Assembly (NCBI GenBank): GCA_024679065.1
Contig: JAGIQG010000024.1
Coordinates: 22,506,001-22,570,000 of the forward strand
Source of the DNA: Sphyrna mokarran
Lineage: Eukaryota
DNA length: 64,000 nt
Reading direction: 5' to 3'
Part shown: positions 40,773 to 59,134 of the stretch, piece by piece
Position numbering within the stretch: position 1 is the first letter of the stretch
Layout: each line of letters begins with the position of its first letter
Made by a program: the position numbers and the translations under genes
The notes under the pieces: generated by a model
The model's database searches: none
What the model was told of the DNA's origin: nothing
What the model saw: the letters and a program-made list of their open reading frames with translations, nothing else

Positions 40773-41123
<351 letters not shown>

Positions 41124-41527
41124 TAATTCTCTCTGTGTGTTGGTTGTTTTGTCAAATTGGGAAAGTTTGCGTCGCATTACAACCACAACCGCAATATTTA
41201 TACCCGACTCAGTATCTGGGTAGAGACGCAAGATCCGATTGGAATGAAAACATGAAAAACTTGTTTTTTTTAAAAAAATATATACATTCAAATAAGCAAA
41301 CAACTACTATTAATGCCTTCAATATTAAACAGTGTTCTTGACAATGCAAGTGTGGATTTTCTTAAAAGTTTAGACATGGTGTTCTTTAATTAATATATTG
41401 CTGTTATTAATTTAATGGAATTGACAAGGCAAGTGTATATTATTGGATTGTACCTCCAGACAGTGCGGGGGATGTAATGCTGTCTGGTAGAAATATAATT
41501 AAACGGCAGTTCAAATATACAAGTGCA

Positions 41528-42602: not shown

Positions 42603-42917
<315 letters not shown>

Positions 42918-49478: not shown

Positions 49479-49631
<153 letters not shown>

Positions 49632-56894: not shown

Positions 56895-57255
56895 ATAAGG
56901 GATGATCTAATGGAATTGCTTCAGGATTTTATGCATTAACAGACTCAATCGTGTTCAGAGAGGGAAATAAGGGAAAATAACATTAAAATTAGAGCGAGGC
57001 TTTTCAGGGATGATGCCAGAAAACAATTCATCACATACAGAGTAGTGGAAATATGGAACTGACTTCCTCAAAGAGCTGTTGAAATTGAAGTGGAGATGAT
57101 GGGACATGGGCAGGGAGGGGGGTGCATTCAAAGTCGCAAAACTGAGACTGATAGATTTTGTTAGACATGGATATTAAGGATAATTAGAGTTAGGGTACAG
57201 ATCAGCCACCTTCCAACTGAATGTTGGAACAGATTCAAGGATTGAATGACTGCCC
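56895..57255 (+). mobile_element. Highly decayed CR1-like 3' fragment
   Basis: tcacatacagagtagtggaaatatggaac; cagatcagccac...aagggattgaatga-type tail. Confidence 0.6.
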
Positions 57256-57459
57256 AAGTAAGGACCAGGTTGGGATTGAACAATGGTGTATTTATCTTTG
57301 CAATGTATTTATATATAATTTGCATAAGTGTACTCTGGTTTATTACAAGTCTTCAGATATAAATATAGAGCCCAACACACTTGGAAGTTTCATTTACACT
57401 CAAAAAAAATCACCCGATGAAAGAATAAGCTTGAGGCAGCAAAACAGTAAGCAGTATCA

Positions 57460-57596
57460 TCAGAACCACAGTGATACTGAACCTGCTCAGAACCACAGTG
57501 ATACTGAACCTGCTCAGAACCACAGTGATACTGAACCTGCTCAGAACCACAGTGATACTGAACCTGCTCAGAACCACAGTGATACTGAACCTGCTC
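57460..57596. repeat. Perfect tandem repeat, 5 x 27 bp (TCAGAACCACAGTGATACTGAACCTGC)
   Basis: Five identical units starting at 57460, 57487, 57514, 57541 and 57568, plus TC. Confidence 0.97.
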
Positions 57597-58147
57597 TGAT
57601 AGTTACTTTATAAGTAAATTTGTTGATTGCTTTAGTGGAAGGACTGAGTGACACACTGCACACCATAACATTCGGTGTATACTGCATACTCTTACGTAAC
57701 ACATATTCCTAACATTTTTGTAAACTTAGGTTCTTAGGTTACACACATCTTGGTATTGTATCTATTTTCCAATAATGTTTGATTCATAAAATCTATTCAA
57801 TTGTTCTGTGTTTCTATGCAGAATACTTAGCATTGTTACCCACTCATTTTTTGGAATTAATATATTTTTCTAATAGGGACTACAGTGAAGTATTTGGTAA
57901 TTAGGGCTGAGAATTTGGAGAAATTTGAACTTTATGGTTGGGACTTTCAGGCTGCACCCGTCCCAAAACGAGGAAATCCCACCCCAGCTAACTGAGCTTT
58001 CTATGGTCCGCCCTTCGCCTGCTATGATTCCCCTGGCGGGCAAAATGGGAAAACTTTGCCCCTACATTTAAGTTGGGAGTATTTTGGAGAGAGGGAGGGT
58101 GTTACACAACTTGGATTCCATCAATTTGAAATCTCAACTATGTTCCT

Positions 58148-58447
58148 TTAAGTTAAAGTTTATTTATTAGTCACAAGTAGGCTGACATTAACATTGCAAT
58201 GAAGTTACTGTGAAACTCCTCTAGTCACCACACTTCAGTGCCTATTCAGGGTACACTGAGGGAGACTTTAGTATAGCCGATACACGTAACCTGTACATCT
58301 TTGGACTGTACAAGGAAACAGAAGCACTCTGTGGAAACCCATGCAGACACAGGAAGAATGTGTAAACTCTACACAGGTCGTGACCCAAGCCGAGCATTGA
58401 ACTCAGGTCCTCGGTGCTGTGAGGCAGCAGTGCAAACCACTGTGCCA
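58148..58447 (-). mobile_element. V-SINE with alternative 3' tail
   Basis: As 15925-16225. Confidence 0.8.
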
Positions 58448-59134
58448 ATGGTGAGATCAAGGAAGGCCGACATACATAGCTTATTGTTCTCACGTTTAGA
58501 TATATCTGCCTCAGTCAGGCTCAGAGAAAATAGCTGTATTGTTTTGCCCAACCAGTGTCAGCTGAAAATATGGACACACCCCAACTATTGGGAAACTTAA
58601 CGCAAAAGCAACTAAATCACAGGAACTCATCTGCCATCATTAACACAAATAGAAACTCAACCCAAACCATCAATTAAAAATCAGGATTCCAACTCAACCA
58701 GGATAAAAACCAAAAACCAGCTAAAGCATTTCCATAGCACTAATCAAACTAATCATCAGTGATACTGCCACTTCCGTGGTAATGCAAAACAGCTTAAGGT
58801 GAACACTGATGTGAAATTGGCACTGTAACAAAGAAAAGTAGTCACACACTGACTCTGAAGTACACAACTAGGGTGACATAGTTTCTCCAAAAGATTTTAC
58901 AAACTATTTGGGCTTTTTTTTTCGCATAATGGCAAAAAAAGCTTCAAATTGATGTGAAAAGGTTGTACAAATCTGTTGGATTTCTGGGCACTGTATAAAC
59001 TTACAATCGAGCCTATTTGAAAAATTTCAGGAAGGCTGCCTATTATCCTGACGAATAGTTTTCCTCAAAACACCAGTACTAAAATCTATTTAACTAGTTA
59101 TTTGTGGCTTCATATTTGTGGGATTTTGCTGAAA

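What the first reader, a model, noticed from the sequence alone, without database searches (positions are those of the whole stretch)
57452..57596. Perfect 5x27-bp array of RUNX binding sites inside a RUNX3 intron: possible copy-number-tuned autoregulatory element
Seen: each identical unit contains AACCACA (= TGTGGTT, the RUNX consensus) at 57464, 57491, 57518, 57545 and 57572. The 27-bp spacing is about 2.5 helical turns, so neighbouring sites alternate helix faces. Established: RUNX genes auto- and cross-regulate through clustered ACCACA sites, for example at P1 promoters. Inference: zero divergence implies a recent expansion, so this could be a polymorphic VNTR that sets RUNX feedback or acts as a RUNX sink. 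It may also be a neutral slippage event that happened to capture a 7-mer.
Basis: partly seen in the sequence, partly recalled or inferred. Interest (0 to 1): 0.7.

Follow-up and report, generated by a model that had tools for sequence, protein, structure and literature searches.

The report
Young minisatellite in shark RUNX3 intron
A 27-base piece of a shark RUNX3 intron that holds one RUNX binding motif is present five times in a row in this genome and once in its relatives, most likely as a harmless copying slip rather than a feedback switch, though no binding or expression data could be tested.

Summary
Five identical 27-bp units (57460-57594), each with AACCACA, lie in a RUNX3 intron of a shark or ray, 7.85 kb after the last Runt exon and 115 kb from the P1 promoter. 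It is not an assembly artefact: short-read depth in a run of the same organism fits about five copies, with no one-copy allele seen. Four runs of relatives (three studies) carry one unit, so four units were gained on this lineage. The regulatory reading has little support. The flanks are no better conserved than nearby intron. Ten other arrays with four or more AACCACA at 26-28 bp period lie elsewhere in the genome; the sampled RUNX1 and RUNX2 regions have none. The canonical autoregulatory pair sits at P1. About 490,000 other AACCACA sites rule out a sink. Polymorphism is not shown. Chance of such an array inside RUNX3 is about 0.5-1%: odd for one gene, expected in a wide scan. Best reading: neutral slippage expansion that caught a RUNX motif (0.8); copy-number enhancer about 0.1. 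The scan noted a comparable motif-bearing 27-bp shark minisatellite in another genome, not this one.

The parts
57460..57596 (+). Perfect tandem array, 5 x 27 bp plus 2 letters; one unit in relatives
   Evidence: identity; joint 57459 to 57568, skip 108, in X2, X6, X9, X10; loop contig depth 62.4 in X1
57464..57470 (+). RUNX consensus motif AACCACA, unit 1
   Evidence: same core as the OSE2 site bound by Runx2 (PMC2275161, passages)
57491..57497 (+). RUNX consensus motif, unit 2
57518..57524 (+). RUNX consensus motif, unit 3
57545..57551 (+). RUNX consensus motif, unit 4
57572..57578 (+). RUNX consensus motif, unit 5
57452..57479 (.). 8-bp inverted repeat: left arm 57452-57459 abuts the array, right arm 57472-57479 lies in unit 1; predicted hairpin with 12-nt loop, possible trigger of slippage (inferred)
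   Evidence: -5.2 kcal/mol, z -0.9 to -1.4, not significant as a fold; such an arm beside 0.35% of window positions; noticed after the fact
57595..57600 (+). Imperfect direct microhomology to the first letters of the unit (57460-57465): 4 of the first 5 letters match; 5 of 6 with the 57600 T>A letter read in X9 and X10
40815..41084 (+). RUNX3 first coding exon of the P2 isoform (context; end approximate)
42708..42864 (+). RUNX3 second Runt-domain exon (context; ends approximate)
49507..49611 (+). RUNX3 third Runt-domain exon; the array lies in the intron that follows

Best explanation
A single 27-bp intronic segment of RUNX3 that holds one RUNX motif is present as five identical tandem copies in this genome and as one copy in four runs of relatives, and the gain is most likely a selectively neutral replication-slippage expansion with little or no effect on RUNX3 expression. 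Shown: the array, its intronic place, about five copies in reads, one unit in relatives. Inferred: a first slip between the imperfect 5-6 bp direct repeats that flank the unit, perhaps helped by the 8-bp hairpin at its left edge, then further slips or unequal exchange between perfect units. RUNX may well bind the naked array; neutrality at the gene is inferred from the lack of constraint and from base rates.
For: One unit in X2, X6, X9 and X10: 4 of 4 relative runs laid. Flanks not constrained: 9-10 differing letters in 101-120 bp left of the array and 7-11 in 153 bp right of it, against 37-49 in about 880 bp 0.4-1.2 kb upstream and 14 in 331 bp 0.9 kb downstream. Arrays of four or more AACCACA at period 26, 27 or 28 occur at 11 loci genome-wide, 10 of them away from RUNX3 and none on the RUNX1 or RUNX2 contigs; triplets 15-40 bp apart give 1,481 matches against 6,626 for the reversed control. 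0 of 8 minisatellites in 400 kb around RUNX1 and RUNX2 hold the consensus. The known autoregulatory tandem pair is intact at P1, 115 kb away (PMC3974841). Neither of the 2 human-elephant shark RUNX3 CNEs is intronic (Table S2). In humans 163 of 10,264 gene-proximal VNTRs were tied to expression (PMC8024321).
Against: The coincidence is uncommon for one gene: about 0.5-1.0% for RUNX3 and 2-3% for three RUNX genes, extrapolated from three periods. It is the only isolated perfect array of five or more units in 1.264 Mb sampled and the only cluster of three consensus sites within 150 bp in the RUNX3 span. AACCACA is 1.65-fold enriched in non-repeat RUNX3 DNA (34 in 121 kb against 54 in 317 kb, p 0.016, rank 36 of 2,590 7-mers), though the other three consensus variants are not. 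The motif with its flanks matches each P1 site at 9 of 10 letters. Six copies of OSE2 make a working Runx2 reporter (PMC3542067). Conservation was measured only against close relatives and is a weak test for a newly made element. No chromatin or expression data were available.
Confidence: 0.8

Rival explanations
1. The expansion made, or strengthened, an intronic RUNX-responsive enhancer or silencer, so RUNX proteins feed back on RUNX3 more strongly in this lineage, in proportion to copy number.
For: Five consensus sites in 115 bp inside RUNX3 itself; chance about 0.5-1% for this gene; mild AACCACA enrichment across the gene; RUNX1 regulates its own P1 through RUNX motifs (PMC4762634, abstract); the TRIB3 33-bp VNTR shows that a one-to-five expansion of a motif can raise expression (PMC7425993, abstract).
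Against: No local constraint; 16.6 kb from P2 and 115 kb from P1, whereas the TRIB3 repeat is a conserved promoter element; no parallel in RUNX1 or RUNX2; no variation in copy number seen in the one individual; like arrays are scattered in the genome.
Confidence: 0.1
2. The array is an offshoot of a dispersed shark minisatellite or of a short interspersed repeat that brought the motif with it.
For: A 26-bp minisatellite on C224 matches the unit at about 21 of 27 letters by my hand alignment.
Against: A 20-letter core of the unit with 1 mismatch allowed occurs only in the array (5 of 5 hits); the C224 unit is confined to one locus in the 100 of 137 hits listed and lacks the motif; a profile from 77 copies of the neighbouring repeat finds nothing at the array; the unit is ancestral single-copy DNA in relatives.
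Confidence: 0.03
3. The array is an assembly artefact, or the true copy number is one.
For: No listed X1 contig spans the array, and X1 has no listed contig for the exit at 57567-57594.
Against: X1 holds a closed 57-bp loop contig at depth 62.4 against flanks of 14.1 and 17.5; five copies predict 56-69, four 42-52, six 70-87; no skip-108 joint in X1.
Confidence: 0.02
4. The array titrates RUNX protein as a sink.
For: Five sites close together.
Against: About 490,000 AACCACA sites genome-wide by extrapolation from 89 in 500 kb, and 50 others in the RUNX3 span alone.
Confidence: 0.01
5. The array is part of a cryptic coding exon (27 bp is nine codons).
For: A 130-codon stop-free frame runs through it on the + strand, 57221-57613.
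Against: X2 and X10 have a one-base insertion behind 57401 inside that frame; none of four RUNX3 proteins aligns there.
Confidence: 0.01

Closest known systems
Human TRIB3 promoter 33-bp VNTR (PMC7425993; abstract seen)
   Same: One copy in relatives, up to five in one lineage; unit of similar size that carries a transcription-factor motif.
   Different: The TRIB3 unit is a conserved promoter element with shown polymorphism, reporter effect and expression link. This array is deep in an intron, unconstrained against relatives, with no polymorphism or function shown; its motif belongs to the host gene's own product.
Tandem RUNX sites of RUNX1-3 P1 promoters (PMC3974841, passages and Table S2 seen; PMC4762634, abstract seen)
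   Same: Same AACCACA core, same strand, clustered, inside a RUNX gene.
   Different: The P1 pair is ancient, conserved from elephant shark to tetrapods, at the promoter, 8 bp apart in this genome, and is present separately here (L046:2313-2327). The array is lineage-specific, 27-bp spaced and 115 kb away.
Synthetic 6xOSE2 Runx reporter (PMC3542067, abstract and passages; PMC2275161, passages)
   Same: Multimer of the same 7-bp core; shows that such an array can respond to RUNX on a plasmid.
   Different: Artificial and placed in a reporter plasmid; says nothing of an intronic array in chromatin.
Ordinary short minisatellites / VNTRs (10.1101/2020.11.03.367367, abstract and one section; PMC8024321, abstract and passages)
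   Same: Unit 27 bp, array under 140 bp, perfect copies.
   Different: Variation among individuals is not shown here; in humans about 19% of minisatellite loci were variable.

Membership tests
Minisatellite (tandem repeat, unit 10-60 bp) | Head-to-tail copies of a unit of that size | tested here: met
Minisatellite (tandem repeat, unit 10-60 bp) | Real in genomic DNA, not an assembly product | tested here: met
   loop-contig depth fits about five copies; X1 may be the sample the window came from, so this tests the assembly, not a second animal
Lineage-specific expansion | Single unit at the orthologous site in relatives | tested here: met
   skip of exactly 108 bp in 4 of 4 relative runs laid; no rooted tree, direction rests on parsimony and on the identity of the units
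VNTR | Copy number varies between alleles or individuals | tested here: inconclusive
   one run of the organism only; mean about 5, no one-copy joint; 5/5 cannot be told from 4/6
Expression-linked VNTR of the TRIB3 kind | Unit is a conserved regulatory element | tested here: not met
   flanks differ from relatives as much as or more than intron 1 kb away; no intronic RUNX3 CNE in Table S2 of PMC3974841. Letters inside the unit itself could not be read directly in relatives
Expression-linked VNTR of the TRIB3 kind | Copy number changes reporter or endogenous expression | not testable with these tools
   needs reporters and paired genotype and RNA
RUNX autoregulatory site cluster (P1 type) | RUNX consensus sites in a cluster within a RUNX gene | tested here: met
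RUNX autoregulatory site cluster (P1 type) | At the P1 promoter or 5' UTR | tested here: not met
   P1 exon and its tandem pair lie 115 kb upstream
RUNX autoregulatory site cluster (P1 type) | Cluster conserved across species and paralogues | tested here: not met
   one unit in relatives; no such array in 200 kb each of RUNX1 and RUNX2 (their P1 exons were not located, so first introns may be covered only in part)
RUNX autoregulatory site cluster (P1 type) | RUNX occupancy in vivo | not testable with these tools
   no ChIP, CUT&RUN or ATAC data
Dispersed minisatellite or interspersed-repeat family | Unit found at other loci | tested here: not met

The most novel reading that the evidence does not exclude
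Slippage multiplied one RUNX site inside RUNX3 into a five-site homotypic enhancer, giving this shark lineage a new, repeat-length-tuned feedback loop of a transcription factor on its own gene, with one-unit relatives as natural controls.
Probability: 0.08. Interest if true: 0.6.

Novelty: new member of a known kind. Interest (0 to 1): 0.2.

Why it matters
As a neutral array it is at most a species or population marker. If it proved functional it would be a clean natural experiment in how a feedback enhancer arises in one step from a single motif, in a gene central to T cells, sensory neurons and cartilage (recalled roles), with close one-copy relatives for comparison. Motif-bearing repeat expansions that change expression are already known (TRIB3), so even then it would be a new example with an autoregulatory twist, not a new kind.

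Tried and rejected
Dispersed family: the C224 look-alike (blastn E 1.2e-9) owes its score to repetition of one 27-bp match and is one locus. Remnant of the neighbouring short interspersed repeat: suggested by a shared 10-mer at 57433-57442, rejected by the profile search; only 4 of 77 copies hold AACCACA. Special folding of the array: z -3.68 on the minus strand against ordinary shuffles vanishes with the right control, as 16% of five-fold arrays of shuffled or random 27-mers fold as well. Strand bias of AACCACA in RUNX3: 20 against 14 after masking, p 0.39. Enrichment of the full consensus RACCRCA in RUNX3: 70 against 62 expected, p 0.18. Cryptic exon. Solved structures could not tell the paralogue: only RUNX1 and RUNX2 chains were among the 17 hits. 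Reading the motif's letters in relatives: the tool lists no differing letter in 57568-57596, but in these tables no difference appears unless some run has it 32 or more letters from a piece end, and 4-5 differences per run in 57568-57720 are unplaced; the joint fits over 29-30 letters, which suggests but does not show an identical unit. No RNA run holds the stretch among those listed. Earlier notes of the scan: none near this place or in look-alike stretches. Literature: a search for runx3 with VNTR or minisatellite (15 of 772 listed, titles only) and one for runx3, shark, binding sites and CNEs (3 of 3) showed no report of this array; two searches listed none on RUNX-site VNTRs among 20 of 348 and 11 of 12. 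Figure S1 of PMC3974841 was not opened.

Full report
Observation. The window holds a perfect tandem array at 57460-57596: period 27, 5.1 copies, 100% matches; the five units are letter-identical. AACCACA lies at 57464, 57491, 57518, 57545 and 57572. The window has 27 AACCACA sites, 22 of them outside the array.

Gene. The exon starting at 40815 is 93-96% identical to six elasmobranch proteins named RUNX3 and 86% to two elephant shark RUNX3 entries, against 71% to a shark RUNX1-like protein. The genome has three RunxI matches; the other two loci match RUNX1 (C335) and RUNX2 (C1104) proteins best. tblastn with tool-given RUNX3 proteins places Runt exons at about 40815-41084, 42708-42864 and 49507-49611, an optional exon 13 kb after the array, a further exon 28 kb after it and the last exon 43 kb after it. 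The P1 exon lies 57 kb before the window. The array is therefore 7.85 kb into the intron after the Runt domain, 16.6 kb from the P2 start codon and 115 kb from the P1 start codon. At P1 this genome has two AACCACA sites 8 bp apart (L046:2313-2327), matching the conserved tandem pair described for elephant shark and tetrapods (PMC3974841, passages).

Is it real? In X1, a short-read run that holds 95% of the stretch's words and may be the source sample, the left flank contig ends 30 bp into the array, and a 57-bp loop contig has depth 62.4 against 14.1 and 17.5 for the flanks. Assuming 31-letter words, five copies predict 56-69, four 42-52 and six 70-87; the estimate is 4.6-5.5 copies. X1 shows no joint that skips units. 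This removes the artefact reading. It shows no polymorphism either: one animal, mean about five, 5/5 not separable from 4/6. One oddity is unexplained: the right contig starts at 57595 rather than 57567, which may be graph cleaning or a variant at the array's 3' edge.

History. Four runs of relatives from three studies, about 4-8% different in this intron, each have one contig that passes from 57459 to 57568, skipping exactly 108 bp, four units (X2, X6, X10; X2, X9, X10). X2 differs from the others at several sites, so at least two lineages carry one unit, and gain on this lineage is the simplest reading. Whether AACCACA itself is intact in the relatives was not read directly: the joint fits over 29-30 letters and no difference is listed in the unit, but differences near piece ends are not listed. 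Zero differences in 135 bp bound the age only at 2.2% substitutions per site, which is most of a branch of about 3% (half the pairwise difference, my assumption). Sharks mutate slowly, 7e-10 per base per generation in the epaulette shark (PMC10587355, passages), so identical units do not imply a young or segregating allele.

How it probably arose (inferred). The unit is bounded by imperfect direct repeats: its first letters and the letters after the array match at 4 of 5 positions, and at 5 of 6 with the 57600 T>A letter of X9 and X10. That is a substrate for one slip of 27 bp; perfect units then slip or exchange unequally with ease (established knowledge, recalled). An 8-bp inverted repeat has its left arm flush with the array and its right arm in the unit; such an arrangement is found at 0.35% of window positions, about as rare as the motif itself, but I noticed it after the fact and the hairpin is weak (-5.2 kcal/mol, z -0.9 to -1.4). 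The array folds no better than 16% of control arrays.

Constraint. Differences from relatives are 9-10 in 101-120 bp just left of the array and 7-11 in 153 bp right of it, against 49 in 878 bp (X2) and 37 in 894 bp (X6) further upstream and 14 in 331 bp further downstream. There is no dip at the array. The two human-elephant shark CNEs of RUNX3 are both intergenic (Table S2 of PMC3974841), though that is a high bar.

Chance. A random 27-mer holds AACCACA with probability 0.37% and the wider consensus with 0.82%. Arrays with four or more AACCACA at a fixed period occur at 5 loci for 26 bp, 4 for 27 bp including this one and 2 for 28 bp (the two opposed C805 arrays counted as one); reversed-motif controls gave 7, 101 and 14 matches against 22, 6 and 16. 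Triplets 15-40 bp apart give 1,481 matches, control 6,626 (first 100 listed). Extrapolating 11 loci in three periods to 95-170 loci, the chance that one lies in the 159-kb RUNX3 span is 0.5-1.0%, and 1.7-3% for an assumed 0.5 Mb of three RUNX genes. That is unusual for a named gene but expected somewhere once many factor-motif pairs and genomes are scanned (inference). Of 42 minisatellites in 1.264 Mb sampled, only this one has the consensus in its unit (1 of 34; 0 of 8 around RUNX1 and RUNX2).

Results against the neutral reading. Perfect arrays like this are rare: it is the only isolated one with five or more units in the 1.264 Mb, and only one other cluster of three consensus sites within 150 bp was found. 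AACCACA is 1.65-fold enriched in non-repeat RUNX3 DNA with the array counted once (p 0.016, rank 36 of 2,590); the full consensus is not (p 0.18). The core equals the OSE2 site bound by Runx2 (PMC2275161, passages), and six OSE2 copies form a standard Runx2 reporter (PMC3542067, passages), so binding in vitro is likely. RUNX1 does regulate its own P1 promoter (PMC4762634, abstract).

Comparison. It works, at most, like the TRIB3 promoter VNTR, a 33-bp unit single in apes and present one to five times in humans, with an expression effect (PMC7425993, abstract); it fails that kind's feature of a conserved promoter unit, and variation and effect are untested. It is not a P1-type autoregulatory cluster: wrong place, not conserved as a cluster, absent from the sampled parts of the paralogues. 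Human base rates are low: about 19% of minisatellites variable (10.1101/2020.11.03.367367, one section) and 163 of 10,264 coding, UTR or promoter VNTRs tied to expression (PMC8024321, passages). A sink is excluded by about 490,000 other sites. The unit is unique in the genome, unlike an earlier scan note on a YY1-motif 27-bp shark minisatellite that belonged to a dispersed family (not checked here).

Verdict. A real, lineage-specific minisatellite that multiplied one RUNX motif inside RUNX3. Most likely neutral (0.8); a copy-number-dependent feedback element stays possible (about 0.1) and is directly testable. New member of a known kind; interest 0.2.

Noticed in passing
L046:2313-2327 and 2759-2765 (G000:C816:22448313-22448765), 57 kb before the window: RUNX3 P1 region: the tandem pair of AACCACA sites 8 bp apart and a third site 36 bp before the P1 start codon; the likely true autoregulatory element.
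   Followed up: partly
window 41181-41193: Two overlapping RUNX consensus sites about 100 bp after the first P2 exon; other close pairs at 5997/6033, 22473/22520 and 46916/46952. Conservation not tested; they may be better autoregulatory candidates than the array.
   Followed up: no
window 57567-57594, run X1: No contig is listed for the array's exit, the loop contig is closed and the right contig starts at 57595; graph cleaning or a variant at the 3' edge.
   Followed up: partly
L002, L028-L037 (G000:C224:38998481-39010800): A 26-bp minisatellite over about 12 kb whose unit resembles the array unit at about 21 of 27 letters but lacks the RUNX motif; one locus among the hits listed.
   Followed up: yes
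G000:C1548:84285749-84286063, C993:21404472-21404582, C113:18570096-18573399, C805:39399658-39405925: Other arrays with AACCACA in every unit, some longer than this one (about 12 units of 28 bp on C1548; kilobases on C113); the C805 arrays face each other in opposite orientation. Neighbouring genes not examined.
   Followed up: no
L003:6652-6744 (G000:C816:22576652-22576744): An optional RUNX3 coding exon that matches one catshark isoform (P0004, 84%) and is absent from three other RUNX3 proteins tested.
   Followed up: no
window 58140-58460: A very high-copy short interspersed repeat (77 near-full copies in 1.2 Mb sampled; summed depth about two million in X1).
   Followed up: partly
window 57221-57613 +: A 130-codon stop-free frame through the array, broken by a one-base insertion in X2 and X10; likely chance.
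   Followed up: yes
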